Part shown: positions 2,051 to 63,289 of the stretch, in pieces
Layout: every line of letters starts with the position of its first letter
Position numbering within the stretch: position 1 is the stretch's first letter
Assembly (NCBI GenBank): GCA_038844785.1
Contig: JAWBRA010000003.1
Coordinates: 25,383-89,382, forward strand
DNA: 64,000 nt
From: Candidatus Caldarchaeum sp.
Lineage (GTDB): Archaea; Thermoproteota; Nitrososphaeria_A; Caldarchaeales; Caldarchaeaceae
Direction of reading: 5' to 3'
The notes under the pieces: model-generated
What the model was told of the DNA's origin: nothing
Database searches by the model: none
Seen by the model: only the letters and a program-made list of their open reading frames with translations
Made by a program: the position numbers and the translations under genes

Positions 2051-2155
2051 TGGGCCCGGTGGGATTCGAACCCACGGCCACCAGGTTATGAGCCTGGCGT
2101 TGCAGAAATATTACAAGCGGTAATATTTTCTCTGACCTAGCTGAGCTACGGGCCC
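2051..2155 (-). tRNA. tRNA with CAU anticodon, probably tRNA-Ile2; 30-nt intron at 24/25 (2100-2129)
   Basis: Removing the intron gives a 75-nt cloverleaf GGGCCCG..CCAGG-CTCATAA-CCTGG..GTGGGTTCGAATCCCAC-CGGGCCCA; GGGCCC acceptor is typical of archaeal Ile2 rather than Met. Confidence 0.92.
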
Positions 2156-2187: not shown

Positions 2188-2360
2188 ATATGTCTGAAAG
2201 GAAAAATGAGGGGGGTGTTTGGCTGGAGGCCGGTCATCTGACAGCGTTTAAGCATGATGAAAACTGTGCATTGGCTCTTAAATCGCCGTAAAGCGTTGGG
2301 TACTGAATTGCCCGGCCTTCATCTGGTTTTTCTCCGCTGTCAGGCCTGGCCTCCAGCCAT
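2188..2360 (-). ncRNA. Putative structured guide RNA (copy A) with two 9-nt variable segments
   Basis: Outer inverted repeats TGGCTGGAGGCC/GGCCTCCAGCCA and CTGACAGCG/CGCTGTCAG; inner stem with symmetric AT-N9-AA loop; homologous to 60686-60844. Confidence 0.75.
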
Positions 2361-3166
2361 TGTTTGTTTGATTTTCTTCAGGAGTTAGCGTGTTTTTCGT
2401 GTAGTGGTTTATTGCTTGGGATTGGGCTGCTTTTCTGAGCCTGTGGTTGTGTCTTCTGTTGTTGGGTTTGTAGAGGCCGACGTAGCATAGGGTTTTCCTC
2501 AGACCGGAATACGTGTAGTAGGAGGTCTGCTAGAGCTGCTTTTCCATAGAGGCTTTTGTATGTTAATCCTAGCTGTCTGCATGTTTCATCATATCTGTGT
2601 AATGTTGTCTTCGCCATCCTTATTATCTGACGTGCCAGCCTGTCTTTGTCTCTGTCTATGGGTTTTACAGCTTCTGCGGACGTTTTAAACAGCTTCAATA
2701 ACCTCGGAAGCTTAAGCTGTTCAGTGTATTCGTCGATGAGCTTCATCAACCCAACATATTCTACTGTAACCTCCACGAAACAACCTCCATCCATCATCGA
2801 TAATATTTTCGCATCATTCTCATCGTTCTTGGACAGCGACAGCCTTTCTCTGTAGGCGGTTAGAAGGTCTGTCCTCTTCAGCCTGAAAACCCTGACGTCA
2901 CGGCTGAGGAGCGCTGAAACGTCGTCATACATGGTTGGCGGTATGATGTCCACGTAAACCTCATCGCCTTCGGCTGCAGGAACGTCAACAAGACGAGATG
3001 TCCTAACACAGTGGTGTCCGTCGAAGACAACATGCGGCCTAGCTCTACGTCCACCGTTTGCAAACGCGTGAACATCGACGTAAAACCTTCTTGCCTCTCT
3101 CCCGAGAGGTTTATAAGCCTCTTTTCGGGGTCTCATCTCATCAGGCACCATTTCGTAAAAGTTCAA
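2340..3166 (-). pseudogene. IS110/TasR-like RuvC + Nop-domain protein, frameshifted
   Basis: FYVDVH (RuvC-I), SKNDENDAKIL (IS110 KTDxxDA-like); after a frameshift at ~2505, GLRKTLCYVGLYKPNNRRHNHRLRKAA; a further shifted tail LLKKIKQTMAGGQA*. Confidence 0.7.
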
Positions 3167-58607: not shown

Positions 58608-60620
58608 ATGGATGGGTTGGTTTCAGTTACGCCCATAGCTATCTCAGGCCTTGCTTTCATTGTGGCGTTAGCTTTCGCTGCATGGCTCAGGTCGAAGCCA
58701 GCGGGTGATGAAAAGGTCCGAAATATCTCTACAGCCGTTAAAGAGGGTAGCAAGGCCTTTCTCCGTAAAGAGCTTAACTACATCGCGTCAGCAGGTGCTT
58801 TGATAGCCTTGTTTCTGTCGATTCTGATAGGGCCTGTGGCGGCAGTCTCGTTCGTTGTGGGCGCGGTTTTGTCTGTTGTAGCTGCGGCGGTTGCGGTTCT
58901 GTCATGCGTCTCAGCCGCTCCGAGGGCTGCGGCCGCCACCTTCAAATCCTTGGGACAGACTTTTCTAACCGCTTTTCGTGGAGGAGCTACCGCAGGCCTT
59001 GTTATCTCGGCAATGGCCTTGACGGCCATCTCATCGCTCTACTTGATTTTCAGAGATCCGTTGTCCATAGCTGGAGCGGGTTTCGGCGCAAGCCTCGTAG
59101 CTCTCTTCATCAGGGCTGGCGGAGGAATCTACACGAAGGCAGCTGACCTTGGGGCTGACCTGGTGGGAAAGGTTGAGGCGGGAATCCCCGAAGACGACCC
59201 ACGCAACCCGGCTACCATAGCTGACAACGTAGGGGACAACGTTGGAGATGCGGCTGGGATGGGAGCTGACGTATACGAGTCATACGTGGTTACGCTTCTG
59301 GCTTCCATGCTTATCGGCTCCCTCATCGGCCGCGGTGAGTTCGTTGTTTTTCCGTTGATGCTGGCCGCATCAGGTTTGTTGGGCTCTGTGGCAGGGGTCT
59401 TGAGTGTTTCTCCAGGGCTTGCTGAAAAGCCACCGACTTCTCTGAATGTATCTTTCATAGTGGCCTCTATAGCAACCATCGTGCTGGGGGCCTACGCAGC
59501 CTCAGCGGTTGTTGAAGGAAGCTTCTTCGGCCCTATACTTGTCTCCCTTGTTTTGGGAGCTGCTTTAGCCCCTATAATACAGCGTGTAACCGATTACTAC
59601 ACCAGCTACCGCTACAGCCCCACTAAAAAAGTTGCCGAAGCCACGAAAATCGGCTTCAGCGCTAACATACTCGAAGGCGTCAGCCTCGGTCTAAAATCTA
59701 ACCTCCCCTTCGCCATCGCGTTGGTGGCTGCACTCCTGCTCAGCTACTACATTGGATATCTCTCATCAGGCCAGCATCTATTCGGAGTTTACTGCACAGC
59801 CTTGACTACGATGGCTATGCTGAGCCTCTCGGGGATTGTTCTGTCCATCGACAGCTTTGGCCCAGTAAGCGACAACGCGGGCGGTATAGTCGAGATGTCG
59901 GGTATGGGTGAGGAGAACAGGAAGCTTACCGACAGCCTTGACGCCATAGGCAACACCACGAAAGCAACAACGAAAGGTTTTGCGATAGCGAGCGCCGGCT
60001 TAGCGGCCATAGCCATGCTACAAGCTTTCCAGTACGAGGCTGAGAAGGTTTTGGGCGCAGGTGTCTACAGCCTATCCAACCCGGCTGTCATCGTAGGTCT
60101 TCTCGTAGGCGGCCTTCTTCCATTCTACGTGAGCAGCAGGCTGATATCCGCCGTTGGTGCGACGGCTTCGAAGATAGTTGAGGAGGTCAGGTATCAGTTT
60201 AGGACTGTGCAAGGGATTTTGGAGGGGGTAGCCAAACCCGACTACGGCAGAGTTGTTTCGATAGCCACCGCAGGGGCTGTGAGAGAGTTGGTAACCCCAG
60301 CGGCTATAGTTGTTTTGACTCCGATTGTAGTCGGCGTTCTCCTCGGGCCCGAGGCTGTTGCAGGTGTTTTGACAGGTGGTGTTGTAAGCGGCCTCTACCT
60401 GGCATACCACATGGCGAACAGCGGAGCAGCATGGGACAACGCCAAGAAATACCTCGAATACCTAGGGCGTAAGAAGACCCCTGAGCATGTTGTCGCCGTG
60501 GCCGGCGACCTCGTAGGAGACCCTTACAAAGACACGGCTGGGCCTTCGCTCAACACAGTAATCAAAGTCCTCAACACAGTGGCCATAGTTTTCGTCCCAG
60601 CGTTCGTCGGACTACTCTAG
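58608..60620 (+). CDS. hppA: Membrane H+-translocating pyrophosphatase, probably K+-independent
   Basis: DLGADLVGKVE, EDDPRN, DNVGDNVGD; GNTTKA has Lys at the K+-determinant position. Confidence 0.95.
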   Translation: MDGLVSVTPIAISGLAFIVALAFAAWLRSKPAGDEKVRNISTAVKEGSKAFLRKELNYIASAGALIALFLSILIGPVAAVSFVVGAVLSVVAAAVAVLSCVSAAPRAAAATFKSLGQTFLTAFRGGATAGLVISAMALTAISSLYLIFRDPLSIAGAGFGASLVALFIRAGGGIYTKAADLGADLVGKVEAGIPEDDPRNPATIADNVGDNVGDAAGMGADVYESYVVTLLASMLIGSLIGRGEFVVFPLMLAASGLLGSVAGVLSVSPGLAEKPPTSLNVSFIVASIATIVLGAYAASAVVEGSFFGPILVSLVLGAALAPIIQRVTDYYTSYRYSPTKKVAEATKIGFSANILEGVSLGLKSNLPFAIALVAALLLSYYIGYLSSGQHLFGVYCTALTTMAMLSLSGIVLSIDSFGPVSDNAGGIVEMSGMGEENRKLTDSLDAIGNTTKATTKGFAIASAGLAAIAMLQAFQYEAEKVLGAGVYSLSNPAVIVGLLVGGLLPFYVSSRLISAVGATASKIVEEVRYQFRTVQGILEGVAKPDYGRVVSIATAGAVRELVTPAAIVVLTPIVVGVLLGPEAVAGVLTGGVVSGLYLAYHMANSGAAWDNAKKYLEYLGRKKTPEHVVAVAGDLVGDPYKDTAGPSLNTVIKVLNTVAIVFVPAFVGLL

Positions 60621-60685
60621 CCCGCAGAGATTATTACACAGGCGTCACATGTATTTAGGGGGTGCTGAGCTCTTAGAGCAGAATG

Positions 60686-60844
60686 GACAGCGGGTAAGAA
60701 GCATGATGACGGCTGGGCAATAGTGCAGCAAACGCGTTACAGCGATTCCGAAGGCAGTGCACAGTTTCCATCCTGACACCCAGACGTTGTCAGATGACGG
60801 GCCTCCAGCCAAACTCTCCCCTCCATTTTTCCTCTCAAACATAT
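60686..60844 (+). ncRNA. Putative structured guide RNA (copy B, orphan, 5'-truncated)
   Basis: Roughly 75-80% identical to 2188-2341(-) by manual alignment; second 9-mer TCCGAAGGC is antisense to the adjacent tRNA-Arg anticodon loop. Confidence 0.75.
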
Positions 60845-60868
60845 ATATGGGAAAACGTTGTTCTTCAT

Positions 60869-60972
60869 GGGCCCGTAGCTCAGCATGGACAGAGAAGATA
60901 TTATCTAGTTAATATCTCTGCAGCGTCGGCCTTCGGAGCCGGAGGCCGTGGGTTCAAGTCCCACCGGGCCCG
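60869..60972 (+). tRNA. tRNA-Arg(UCG) with a 29-nt intron at 24/25 (60895-60923)
   Basis: Removing the intron gives a 75-nt cloverleaf, TCGGC-CTTCGGA-GCCGG, A20, discriminator G. Confidence 0.93.
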
Positions 60973-60976
60973 AACA

Positions 60977-61432
60977 TCATCTAACAGGCTTTAGCAGCTC
61001 GCGAGCCATCTCCAATCTTTTTTTCAAAATCGGTTCAAGATTTTTACTGCCCTTAAGCCTTCCGGCTAGCTTGTTCCTCTTCGGCCTGCTAACCCTAAGA
61101 AACAGCGTTTCTAACGCCGAGATATGTTTCAAGCATTTGCAAATGTACATGCTGAATGTTTTCCATTTGTTTTTGTGTCTATCCTTCAAATGATGTTGAA
61201 GTCTTTTGATTATGTTCTTTCTCGCTATGCCCAGATAGTACAGGTTGCCTTTCTCGTCATCGAGACCGTAGACTCCTATCATAGGAAATTTCACCTCTTC
61301 TTCAACGATCTCCAAAAACCTGTCGTCTTTAAGCAATCCTCTTTTCCGCTTTTCAAAATGGTAGAGGACAAGCTTCGCCTTTATTCTCTTTTTCCATCTC
61401 CTTTCCTTCTTTTCGTTACACATGTTACGCAA
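60977..61432 (-). CDS. GIY-YIG nuclease-like protein
   Basis: GVYGL..LYYLGIA..KRLQHH..LE..N; AT-rich. Confidence 0.7.
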   Translation of the reverse strand: MRNMCNEKKERRWKKRIKAKLVLYHFEKRKRGLLKDDRFLEIVEEEVKFPMIGVYGLDDEKGNLYYLGIARKNIIKRLQHHLKDRHKNKWKTFSMYICKCLKHISALETLFLRVSRPKRNKLAGRLKGSKNLEPILKKRLEMARELLKPVR

Positions 61433-61455
61433 ATCACGTCATCGTATTTGAATTT

Positions 61456-61740
61456 TCAAAGTATTATGCGAAATCCTCGTAATGGACCGGGTTCCTGTGT
61501 TTTCTCCACCGTTACCCTCTGAACTTTAGCCAACGGCGGTCCTCTGTGACACCATTCGACGAGCTTTTTCACCTTCTCCTCTTCGCCCACTACTAGGGCT
61601 TCAACGCTTCCATCCTCGACATTCCTAACCCAGCCGTCAACACCCAGCTCGTCAGCGACCTCCTTCATCGAAGACCTGAAGAAAACTCCTTGAACTCTTC
61701 CGTAAACCCTTACGCGCACCGCAACCCGGGGCATGGACAT
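61456..61740 (-). CDS. acyP: Acylphosphatase
   Basis: GRVQGVFFR, GWVRN, GPPLAKV. Confidence 0.95.
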   Translation of the reverse strand: MSMPRVAVRVRVYGRVQGVFFRSSMKEVADELGVDGWVRNVEDGSVEALVVGEEEKVKKLVEWCHRGPPLAKVQRVTVEKTQEPGPLRGFRIIL

Positions 61741-63148: not shown

Positions 63149-63289
63149 AACCAAAAGATAAATGATACTGCCTTTAATGAAGGCATCCATCCATGGATGG
63201 ATGCCCGAAGCGGTAGAAGCTCACAACTTCGATGACCGCGTCCAAAGGGTTTGGATGCGTCGCCAACTGGACGGCAGACGCCTTAGGTC

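What the first reader, a model, noticed from the sequence alone, without database searches (positions are those of the whole stretch)
60686..60937. Orphan guide copy with a perfect match to the adjacent tRNA-Arg anticodon loop
No protein gene is upstream (hppA ends 65 bp earlier) and the 5' arm of the outer stem is missing, yet the guide loop is intact. TCCGAAGGC is the exact reverse complement of 60929-60937. Guide 1 AGTGCAGCA matches intron-less AGAGCGTCG 5/9, but also shares TGCAGC with the intron/3'-exon junction. An alternative role is pairing in cis with the pre-tRNA to affect splicing or modification.
Basis: partly seen in the sequence, partly recalled or inferred. Interest (0 to 1): 0.8.

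Follow-up and report, generated by a model that had tools for sequence, protein, structure and literature searches.

The report
Relic guide RNA beside tRNA-Arg
This is the worn-out remnant of the guide-RNA module of a small archaeal mobile element that appears to use two 9-letter guides to find tRNA genes, insert into them, and leave behind a new promoter, a new tRNA front end and an intron.

Summary
TCCGAAGGC (60747-60755) is the exact reverse complement of 60929-60937, the anticodon stem-loop of an intron-bearing tRNA-Arg(TCG). The stretch is one of 13 long copies of a repeat in this genome.

Intact copies are a 142-nt hairpin RNA lying 3' of a 260-300-aa protein, with two variable 9-mers in an internal loop. 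Guide 2 is antisense to tRNA positions 30-38. Guide 1 is same-sense to positions 21-29. Together they spell a contiguous 18-bp site in the uninterrupted tRNA gene; four guide pairs match such genes 18 of 18.

A profile of the protein family hits TIGR-TasR (E 7.6e-10) and IS621 (E 0.004), and TasR is the top fold match.

A close relative keeps the empty site: H+-PPase gene, then an intronless tRNA-Arg. In the window, the old tRNA 5' part sits left of the remnant. A new promoter, 5' exon and 29-nt intron sit to its right, ending at position 24/25.

The element was described in 2012 without its RNA or its protein kinship. The window copy is dead: no protein, no 5' arm, 12 of 58 invariant positions changed, no stable fold. 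Pairing in cis with the pre-tRNA is not supported.

The parts
60621..60677 (+). Old leader and promoter region, plus the degenerate 5' end of the ancestral tRNA-Arg gene
   Evidence: Its start aligns with the intergenic region that follows the H+-PPase gene in relative G004:C17, where an intronless tRNA-Arg follows directly.
60678..60692 (+). 15-nt relic of the ancestral tRNA-Arg(TCG) D-loop and D-stem (up to position 24), fused to the guide-RNA remnant
   Evidence: Identical over 15 nt to the intronless tRNA-Arg(TCG) of G004:C17 at the orthologous site. The last 7 nt are also part of the RNA family consensus, so the fusion point lies within them.
60686..60810 (+). Decayed remnant of the tandem-guide hairpin RNA; the 5' arm of the outer stem is missing
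   Evidence: Aligns to 12 other long copies in the genome and to the 20-sequence family alignment A2. 12 of 58 invariant columns are changed. Minimum free energy is -34.4 kcal/mol, z +1.18, against -71 kcal/mol, z -7.70, for an intact copy.
60722..60730 (+). Guide 1 (decayed), same sense as tRNA positions 21-29
   Evidence: Sits in the guide-1 columns of the family alignment. 6 of 9 identical to the empty-site tRNA of G004:C17; with guide 2, 15 of 18.
60747..60755 (+). Guide 2, antisense to tRNA positions 30-38
   Evidence: Exact reverse complement of 60929-60937.
60801..60832 (+). Right-end motif shared with at least two other element families in the genome
   Evidence: About 25 further short matches to this motif in the genome. 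The list of motif sites shows the other families.
60833..60868 (+). A+T-rich leader and presumed promoter brought in with the element, directly upstream of the functional tRNA
   Evidence: This stretch is similar between copies that sit upstream of different tRNAs. Promoter function is inferred, not tested.
60869..60894 (+). tRNA-Arg(TCG) exon 1 (positions 1-24), brought in with the element
   Evidence: The ancestral 5' part is still present upstream at 60678-60692. This exon differs from the G004 orthologue in the D-arm.
60895..60923 (+). 29-nt intron at position 24/25, read here as the right terminus of the inserted DNA
   Evidence: Absent from the G004:C17 orthologue. Related intron sequences follow other copies. 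A 2012 paper reports the same intron position for this element.
60924..60972 (+). tRNA-Arg(TCG) exon 2 (positions 25-73), the resident part of the target gene; 60929-60937 is the site matched by guide 2
   Evidence: The flank from 60923 onward is 96% identical to G004:C17.
2188..2341 (-). Second copy of the RNA in the window, with its 5' arm
   Evidence: Its guide 2 matches the adjacent tRNA-Met at 8 of 9.
2378..3166 (-). Gene for the element's protein (262 aa, frame-shifted near the C-terminus)
   Evidence: Fold and profile matches to TasR and IS621.
2051..2155 (-). Intron-bearing tRNA-Met downstream of the second copy
   Evidence: Rfam RF00005, 52.2 bits.

Best explanation
The stretch 60686-60810 is a dead, protein-less remnant of the guide-RNA module of a small mobile element restricted to the window's archaeal order (proteins named Candidatus Caldarchaeum / Nitrososphaerota by their sources). 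An intact element encodes a 260-300-aa protein with a RuvC-like DEDD domain, a coiled coil and a Nop-like domain, related to TIGR-TasR and to IS110 bridge recombinases. Overlapping the end of that gene lies a 142-nt hairpin RNA with two 9-nt guides in one internal loop. Guide 1 pairs with the template strand at tRNA positions 21-29 and guide 2 with the sense strand at positions 30-38, so together they specify one 18-bp site in an uninterrupted tRNA gene. The element enters at position 24/25. It brings its own promoter, a replacement 5' exon (positions 1-24) and a short intron. The tRNA is therefore restored by splicing, and the 18-bp site is destroyed at DNA level. In the window this happened to the tRNA-Arg(TCG) gene downstream of the H+-PPase gene. 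Later a deletion between 7-nt repeats removed the left end, the protein gene and the 5' arm of the RNA. What remains has been decaying since. The perfect 9-mer match is thus a footprint of DNA targeting, not a present cis-regulatory pairing. What is shown: family membership, the guide-target rule, the empty site and the decay. What is inferred: the enzymology. I favour a TasR-like RNA-guided staggered cut followed by copying-in of the element, with the flanking tRNA halves serving as homology arms.
For: The empty site exists. G004:C17 has the H+-PPase gene, about 50 nt, then an intronless tRNA-Arg(TCG) and the same downstream flank at 96% identity. The window keeps 15 nt of that old tRNA left of the remnant.

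The guide rule holds across copies. Guide 2 matches perfectly in 12 of 29 copies, against 17 of 776 cross pairs. Perfect matches cover 10 tRNA specificities. The last five letters of guide 1 agree with tRNA positions 25-29 at 4 or more of 5 in 12 of 20 copies, against 64 of 364 cross pairs. Guide 1 plus the reverse complement of guide 2 occurs 18 of 18 in uninterrupted tRNA genes of other genomes for four guide pairs: G007:C4 in G004:C17, G011:C34 in G000:C12, G011:C13 in G000:C19 and G009:C1 in G000:C5.

The RNA fold is supported. RNAalifold predicts 41 pairs, 6 with compensatory changes, on 20 distinct copies. An intact copy folds at z -7.70.

The protein is related to known RNA-guided enzymes. 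A 39-sequence profile hits TasR 9mty_A at E 7.6e-10 and IS621 at E 0.0042; the next hit is at E 0.27. For a model with pLDDT 94.8, Foldseek ranks TasR first (E 4.6e-7, TM 0.58), then ISCro4 and IS621. Acidic residues at DEDD-like positions are invariant or nearly so.

The targeting logic has a solved precedent. Passages of the TIGR-Tas paper describe 9-nt tandem spacers pairing with opposite strands of a contiguous 18-bp target.

The same element and its intron at 24/25 are in print (Sugahara et al. 2012).

The window copy is decayed: 12 of 58 invariant columns changed and z +1.18. 5 of 7 family-1 protein genes in this genome are visibly broken.
Against: There is no evidence here that the RNA is made or that the protein is active. 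The RNA contigs laid did not cover the remnant.

The rule has exceptions. 9 of 29 copies have 2 or more mismatches between guide 2 and the downstream DNA, and several are chimeric; one carries a Lys guide, a Thr 5' fragment on its left and a Met tRNA on its right. Guide 1 of four copies in this genome (C47, C12, C3a, C24) matches no neighbouring tRNA.

The left end of a complete element was not pinned down. tRNA 5' fragments that abut a conserved left-end sequence stop at position 31, not at 24, and mostly derive from Thr-type tRNAs.

G004:C39 has an identical RNA upstream of an intronless tRNA-Lys whose 18-bp site is 17 of 18 intact. Insertion therefore does not always leave an intron or destroy the site.

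No serine is conserved where IS110 enzymes carry their nucleophile, and no second (donor) loop was seen, so the chemistry is open.

My reading of the TasR cut rule puts one nick at 24/25. It gives a 10-nt stagger where the paper reports 8 nt, so the register may be off by one.
Confidence: 0.65

Rival explanations
1. Same element and same relic, but the intact element moves as IS110/IS1111 elements do. The RNA would then be the target-binding half of a bridge RNA, and the protein a recombinase that exchanges strands between a circular donor junction and the tRNA target. A donor-binding part would lie elsewhere, for example in the roughly 450-550-nt non-coding left region.
For: IS621 and ISCro4 are strong fold matches, and IS621 is a profile hit (E 0.0042). 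The elements are multi-copy, with an inverted copy of the right-end motif upstream of the gene. The 2012 paper reports that positions 25-27 occur on both sides of the insert, like a short core.
Against: Pfam models PF01548 and PF02371 do not hit any of the 14 members scanned. No serine is conserved in the C-terminal loop. Only one guide-bearing loop is seen in the RNA. The profile match to TasR is about seven orders of magnitude better than to IS621.
Confidence: 0.2
2. The RNA acts on RNA: it pairs with the (pre-)tRNA anticodon loop, in cis or in trans. It would guide a modification such as 2'-O-methylation at position 34, or influence splicing, in the manner of an archaeal C/D-box sRNP built on a Nop5-like protein.
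For: Guide 2 is antisense to the tRNA, and its central base faces position 34. The protein family is related to Nop-domain proteins through IS110 and TasR (TIGR-Tas passages). GAUGA-like and CUGA-like motifs occur in the stem.
Against: Guide 1 is same-sense to the tRNA and still tracks positions 21-29. The acidic DEDD-like residues are conserved, unlike in Nop5. No Rfam C/D family reaches its threshold; the best is E 0.12, on the opposite strand. The copies behave as a mobile, decaying repeat with an empty site in a relative. The window copy does not fold.
Confidence: 0.05
3. The match is not a guide at all. It is chance, or a captured piece of a tRNA gene inside a repeat.
For: One 9-mer match within a few hundred bases could arise by chance if many 9-mers are tried. 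Anticodon loops of related tRNAs are alike, so cross matches occur (17 of 776).
Against: There are four exact 18-of-18 matches in other genomes. A captured contiguous tRNA piece could not put the two halves on opposite strands, separated by a conserved hairpin. The self-versus-cross control also argues against it.
Confidence: 0.02

Closest known systems
TIGR-Tas systems, TasR type (Faure et al. 2025, PMC12045711; passages read)
   Same: A RuvC plus Nop-like protein, which is both the best profile match and the best fold match. Two 9-nt spacers in tandem pair with opposite strands of one ungapped 18-bp DNA target. Stem-loop-type guide units are also known there.
   Different: There is one guide unit per protein gene instead of an array. 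The unit overlaps the 3' end of the gene. It is part of a multi-copy mobile element. Its natural targets are identifiable host tRNA genes. [quoted passage not shown] No processing data exist.
IS110/IS1111 elements with bridge or seek RNAs (Durrant et al. 2024, PMC11208160, seen as a search listing; structures 8wt6 and 9t56 as fold hits)
   Same: A mobile element whose structured RNA carries guides in an internal loop that read both strands of the target. The protein fold is similar (TM about 0.55). The RNA lies 3' of the gene, as I recall for IS1111.
   Different: No hit to the two IS110 Pfam domains. No conserved serine. One loop, not two. The element carries a promoter, a tRNA 5' exon and an intron as cargo at its end.
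The 1,868-bp insertion sequence at tRNA-Thr(GGU) of Caldiarchaeum subterraneum (Sugahara et al. 2012, PMC3293823; abstract read, plus the first of two parts each of Results and Discussion)
   Same: Same genus-level host. A displaced tRNA 5' fragment, an 813-bp ORF called a putative recombinase, an intron gained at 24/25 and several copies per genome. A copy next to an intron-bearing tRNA-Thr(GGT) is present in G009:C1.
   Different: That paper saw no guide RNA and no kinship to IS110 or TasR, and it proposed descent from a pNOB8-type plasmid integrase system. I did not compare sequences with its clones directly.
Archaeal integrative elements that target tRNA genes with tyrosine integrases (SSV and pNOB8 types; as summarised)
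   Same: They insert into a tRNA gene and rebuild it from an element-borne copy of part of the gene, leaving a partial duplicate.
   Different: Those use protein-recognised att sites and a tyrosine recombinase. Here recognition is by two RNA guides, and the rebuilt gene needs splicing.
Homing endonuclease genes and guide-RNA nucleases of transposons (TnpB/IscB) that promote retention or homing (recalled, not from a call)
   Same: A nuclease that cuts the empty allele would favour copying of the occupied one.
   Different: This is inferred only. No cutting or homing has been shown for this family.

Membership tests
TIGR-Tas (TasR) | Effector with a Nop-like RNA-binding domain fused to a RuvC nuclease domain | tested here: met
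   Profile A3 hits 9mty_A at E 7.6e-10. Foldseek ranks 9mty first, E 4.6e-7, TM 0.58, for a model with pLDDT 94.8. Acidic residues are invariant or nearly so.
TIGR-Tas (TasR) | Two tandem spacers of about 9 nt that pair with opposite strands of a contiguous target | tested here: met
   Four exact 18-of-18 matches of guide 1 plus the reverse complement of guide 2 to uninterrupted tRNA genes. Controls.
TIGR-Tas (TasR) | Guides stored in an array of repeated units next to the effector gene | tested here: not met
   One unit per gene in all 20 intact copies aligned.
TIGR-Tas (TasR) | [quoted passage not shown] | tested here: inconclusive
   GAUGA-like and CUGA-like motifs lie in the stems, not next to the guides. 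Processing cannot be tested with these tools.
IS110 family (bridge recombinases) | DEDD RuvC-like N-terminal domain | tested here: inconclusive
   Acidic residues are conserved at the expected motifs and the fold matches. PF01548 is not hit in any of 14 members.
IS110 family (bridge recombinases) | C-terminal Tnp domain with a conserved serine nucleophile | tested here: not met
   No conserved serine in the C-terminal loop of the 39-sequence alignment. PF02371 is not hit. That the serine defines the family is recalled.
IS110 family (bridge recombinases) | Bridge RNA with separate target-binding and donor-binding loops | tested here: not met
   The consensus structure has a single guide-bearing internal loop. 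The left non-coding region was not analysed for a second RNA.
Archaeal C/D-box sRNA | Box C/D and C'/D' motifs with 10-12-nt antisense guides ending at a D box | tested here: not met
   No Rfam family reaches its threshold; the best C/D-type hit is E 0.12, on the minus strand. Guide 1 is same-sense to the tRNA.
Caldiarchaeum tRNA-disrupting insertion sequence (Sugahara 2012) | Insert between a tRNA 5' fragment and a rebuilt tRNA with a new intron at 24/25, carrying an ORF of about 270 aa | tested here: met
   The window has the old 5' relic, the insert and the intron ending at 24/25. Family ORFs are 260-300 aa. The match is to the paper's description only; its sequences were not compared.

The most novel reading that the evidence does not exclude
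These elements are natural RNA-guided homing elements. A TasR-like nuclease, loaded with a single tigRNA-like hairpin, cuts uninterrupted tRNA genes at an 18-bp site. The element, flanked by tRNA halves that act as homology arms, is then copied in. The tRNA survives because the element supplies a promoter, a 5' exon and a spliceable intron. If so, this would give a concrete mechanism for the gain of non-canonical tRNA introns in archaea. It would show a natural target and a biological role for a TIGR-Tas-like system. It would also be a living intermediate between IS110 transposons and TIGR-Tas.
Probability: 0.4. Interest if true: 0.9.

Novelty: new variant of a known kind. Interest (0 to 1): 0.75.

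Why it matters
How archaeal tRNA genes acquire introns at odd positions, and why, has been debated for about two decades. The 2012 work on Caldiarchaeum showed that an insertion sequence can bring such an intron, but it gave no recognition mechanism.

The evidence here suggests that recognition is by two 9-nt RNA guides reading both strands of the tRNA gene. The partner protein is related to TasR and to IS110 recombinases. The intron is the element's own terminus.

This makes the question testable with one protein, one 142-nt RNA and an 18-bp target. It also gives a TIGR-Tas-like system an identifiable natural target; the passage of the TIGR-Tas paper I read still calls the biological role of TIGR systems an open question.

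In four searches of the held library and in term searches of three papers, I found no paper that links this element to a guide RNA, IS110 or TIGR-Tas.

The window copy itself is only a fossil. Its value is that, together with the relative's empty site, it records the event.

Tried and rejected
ARAGORN on the window found no tRNA. Introns defeat it, so tRNAs were taken from Rfam and from reading the sequence.

Rfam at lax thresholds gave only weak, scattered hits in 60000-61600: a mammalian snoRNA model at E 0.12 on the minus strand, and fragments of the tRNA. I rejected these as chance.

Pfam and NCBIfam gave nothing for the protein. The 14-sequence profile found no solved relative (best E 0.32). 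Only the wider 39-sequence profile did.

I first thought the conserved 33 nt at 60800-60833 might be a general tRNA promoter motif. I rejected this because most of its other copies are right ends of a second element family and are not next to tRNAs.

I considered that the left end of the complete element is the conserved sequence found after tRNA 5' fragments ending at position 31. This stays unresolved. Those fragments are mostly Thr-type, and none of the matched elements I held reached far enough left.

An automatic finder of tRNA positions 30-38 missed or mis-assigned several tRNAs that have second introns or long variable arms. I therefore used a control that needs no tRNA annotation.

An unbiased scan of 16 distant family members gave reverse-complement matches of 9 nt or more to downstream DNA in 8 of 16, against 41 of 240 cross pairs. 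Clear anticodon-loop hits came in only two, G362:C35 and G027:C1. This is suggestive, not decisive.

Expression could not be judged. Of 20 public runs listed, four were laid, and all are contigs. The exact allele is present in DNA runs X7 and X10. One DNA contig and one RNA-library contig from diverged relatives join the H+-PPase gene to the tRNA 3' part without the insert. No RNA contig covered 60686-60810. That shows nothing either way.

Full report
WHAT IS THERE. The window comes from an archaeon: an archaeal LSU rRNA starts at 63281. Sources name its protein relatives Candidatus Caldarchaeum or Nitrososphaerota.

The ORF 58608-60620 is an H+-pyrophosphatase. It ends 65 nt before the finding starts.

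A tRNA-Arg(TCG) lies at 60869-60972 and carries a 29-nt intron at 60895-60923, between positions 24 and 25. ARAGORN misses it, and Rfam sees only part of it.

TCCGAAGGC at 60747-60755 is the exact reverse complement of 60929-60937, which are tRNA positions 30-38.

IT IS A MEMBER OF A REPEAT FAMILY. The region 60686-60860 matches 12 other long copies in the same 1.74-Mb genome at 73-80% identity. A further 25 or so short matches cover only 60800-60835.

In intact copies the conserved part is a 138-148-nt hairpin. Its 5' arm overlaps the last codons and the stop codon of an upstream gene.

On 20 distinct intact copies from 8 genomes, RNAalifold predicts 41 base pairs, 6 of them with compensatory changes. 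One intact copy folds at -71 kcal/mol, z -7.70.

Two 9-nt stretches in one internal loop are hypervariable. A small conserved hairpin separates them, and invariant letters flank them.

THE GUIDE RULE. Guide 2 is the reverse complement of tRNA positions 30-38 of the tRNA gene that lies about 60-70 nt beyond the end of the hairpin.
- 30 copies were parsed and one was dropped for lack of downstream DNA. Of the remaining 29, a copy's own guide 2 has a perfect match in the 230 nt downstream in 12, and a match with at most one mismatch in 20.
- Guides of other copies on the same DNA match perfectly in 17 of 776 pairs. Some copies are close kin, so these counts overstate independence.
- The perfect matches still cover ten different tRNA specificities: Lys-TTT, Lys-CTT, Met-CAT, Arg-TCG, Arg-TCT, Arg-CCG, Arg-CCT, Arg-GCG, Asn-GTT and Thr-GGT.

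Guide 1 is in the same sense as the tRNA and corresponds to positions 21-29. Its last five letters agree with positions 25-29 at 4 or more of 5 in 12 of 20 copies, against 64 of 364 cross pairs.

The decisive result is that guide 1 followed by the reverse complement of guide 2 forms a contiguous 18-mer that occurs exactly in uninterrupted tRNA genes of other genomes:
- the G007:C4 pair in the intronless tRNA-Arg(TCG) of G004:C17;
- the G011:C34 pair in tRNA-Asn of G000:C12;
- the G011:C13 pair in tRNA-Arg(GCG) of G000:C19;
- the G009:C1 pair in tRNA-Thr(GGT) of G000:C5.

One guide reads one DNA strand and the other guide reads the opposite strand. A transcript cannot be the target of both.

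THE EMPTY SITE AND THE HISTORY OF THE WINDOW COPY. In the closest relative that holds the locus (G004:C17), the H+-PPase gene is followed after about 50 nt by an intronless tRNA-Arg(TCG). The downstream flank is the same as in the window, at 96% identity.

In the window, a 15-nt stretch identical to the D-loop and D-stem of that tRNA survives at 60678-60692, directly fused to the RNA remnant. To the right of the remnant come the family's right-end motif, an A+T-rich leader, a different 5' exon, the intron, and then the resident exon 2.

The inserted DNA therefore runs from position 24 of the old gene to the 3' end of the intron. The intron is the terminus of the insert.

Three further relatives (G002, G003, G006) have the tRNA 39 nt after the H+-PPase gene. 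It carries a different 20-nt intron at the same position and has no element.

Protein-less remnants fused to an old tRNA 5' fragment are common. G007:C4 and G004:C52 are fused near the same 7-nt repeat as the window copy. G000:C50 and G000:C2b are fused in register at guide 1, which by design repeats the tRNA sequence. I read all of these as deletions between short direct repeats.

THE WINDOW COPY IS DECAYED. It lacks the protein gene and the 5' arm. 12 of 58 family-invariant columns are changed, 7 of them in the retained part.

It folds no better than shuffled sequence: -34.4 kcal/mol, z +1.18.

Its guide 1 differs at three positions from the version in G007:C4, which matches the empty site exactly. 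The window pair matches that site at 15 of 18.

At roughly 80% identity to the other copies, nine unchanged letters in guide 2 are not surprising. That is my own estimate, about 0.8 to the ninth power, or 0.13.

THE PROTEIN. A 262-aa, frame-shifted copy lies at 2378-3166 on the minus strand, upstream of the window's second RNA copy (2188-2341) and a tRNA-Met.

The family is small:
- 17 clusters at 90% identity among 5.8 billion proteins;
- 156 representatives at E 0.001 or better among 1.84 billion;
- 30 of 401 genomes sampled across the phylum. All 29 besides the window's own lie among the 59 sampled genomes of its order; none lies among the 341 sampled outside it.

No Pfam or NCBIfam model hits it.

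A 39-sequence profile hits TIGR-TasR (9mty_A, E 7.6e-10) and IS621 transposase (E 0.0042), with nothing else below 0.27.

An AlphaFold model of a full-length member (pLDDT 94.8) has TasR as its best Foldseek match (E 4.6e-7, TM 0.58). ISCro4 and IS621 follow at TM about 0.55. The window's own truncated protein gave the same families.

Acidic residues at DEDD-like positions are invariant or nearly so, but no serine is conserved in the C-terminal loop.

In this genome, 5 of 7 family-1 genes are visibly broken, one is partial and one is split across contig ends. Paralogues of a second family look intact.

HOW IT MOST LIKELY WORKS. Passages of the TIGR-Tas paper describe tandem 9-nt spacers that pair with opposite strands of an ungapped 18-bp target. 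TasR is reported to nick each strand at the fifth spacer position.

The Caldarchaeum RNA follows the same 9+9, two-strand, ungapped logic. By my geometric reading, the nick directed by guide 1 falls at 24/25, the observed insertion point. The register is uncertain by one, because my reading gives a 10-nt stagger where the paper reports 8 nt.

I therefore favour an RNA-guided staggered cut of the uninterrupted tRNA gene, followed by copying-in of the element. The old 5' fragment and exon 2 that flank every inserted copy would serve as homology arms.

Three observations fit this:
- The targeted tRNAs fall into three acceptor-stem classes (read).
- Chimeric copies exist.
- In G007:C4, an Arg-TCG-type fragment and TCG guides sit at the Arg-CCG locus.

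An IS110-like strand-exchange mechanism remains possible. None of this chemistry is shown.

WHAT IS KNOWN. Sugahara et al. 2012 described the same kind of insert at tRNA-Thr(GGU) of Caldiarchaeum subterraneum. I read the abstract and the first of two parts each of its Results and Discussion.

They reported 1,868 bp between a tRNA 5' fragment and a rebuilt tRNA with a new intron at 24/25, an 813-bp ORF predicted to bind or recombine DNA, and several copies per genome. They proposed descent from a pNOB8-type plasmid. They reported no RNA component.

Four library searches turned up no paper that connects this element with a guide RNA, IS110 or TIGR-Tas. The same holds for term searches in the IS110-Nop5 preprint, a 2026 non-coding RNA atlas preprint and a 2026 TIGR survey preprint. 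Supplements were closed.

VERDICT. The copy is a fossil, and the proposed cis-acting role is not supported. The family behind it is a new variant of the TasR/IS110 kind of RNA-guided system. It has natural tRNA-gene targets and a direct link to tRNA intron gain.

Noticed in passing
window 60977-61432 (-): The ORF just downstream of the tRNA-Arg carries a GIY-YIG nuclease domain (Pfam E 2.5e-05). This flank is 96% identical to relative G004, while the H+-PPase gene is only 83% identical. It may be a recently exchanged mobile gene.
   Followed up: no
own genome, e.g. G000:C14:26980-27885 (-) and about 30 right ends listed: A second, more numerous element family has a paralogous 301-aa protein that looks intact, and a hairpin RNA of the same architecture with different loops. 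It shares the right-end motif seen at window 60801-60832. Most copies are not next to tRNAs, and many sit at contig ends.
   Followed up: partly
own genome: C2:83119(-), C2:75150(-), C2:91444(+), C8:454(-), C12:41749(-), C23:26492(+), C24:23867(+), C35:2586(-): tRNA 5' fragments, mostly Thr-type, stop at position 31 and are followed by a conserved sequence of about 450-550 nt that precedes the protein gene in some copies. This may be the element's left end, or 'region a' of the 2012 paper.
   Followed up: partly
L028 (G004:C39) versus L029 (G000:C9): Two elements with RNA regions 100% identical over 261 nt sit upstream of tRNA-Lys(TTT). The tRNA carries the 24/25 intron in one genome and is intronless in the other, so intron presence can change quickly.
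   Followed up: no
own genome: C7:61341-61445, C50:6326-6429, C2:83211-83293 and window 60869-60972: Four of the five tRNA-Arg isoacceptor genes seen in this genome carry an intron at 24/25. Only Arg-GCG (C19:331-405) is uninterrupted, and it is an exact 18-bp target for an element found in another genome.
   Followed up: partly
L035 (G014:C9) and G000:C20:23962: One distant RNA copy has guides that match, with 1 mismatch in 18, a long-arm tRNA-Leu(CAG) that itself carries an insert in the D-arm region.
   Followed up: no
L040 (G007:C4): In this orphan, the acceptor-stem letters of the old tRNA fragment pair with the 3' arm of the RNA's outer stem and partly restore a long hairpin (z -2.85).
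   Followed up: no
own genome C10:61103 (+): Between two copies of a CRISPR-like direct repeat lies a stretch that matches the element's 14-nt right-end core with 2 mismatches.
   Followed up: no
L082 (G003:C2), L083 (G401:C57), L065 (G265:C76), L069 (G039:C127): In distant family members that are not next to an obvious tRNA, 10-11-nt stretches of the RNA region have reverse-complement matches 340-390 nt downstream. The guide-matches-downstream-DNA rule may therefore extend beyond tRNA targets; the cross control shows such lengths in 14 of 240 pairs.
   Followed up: no
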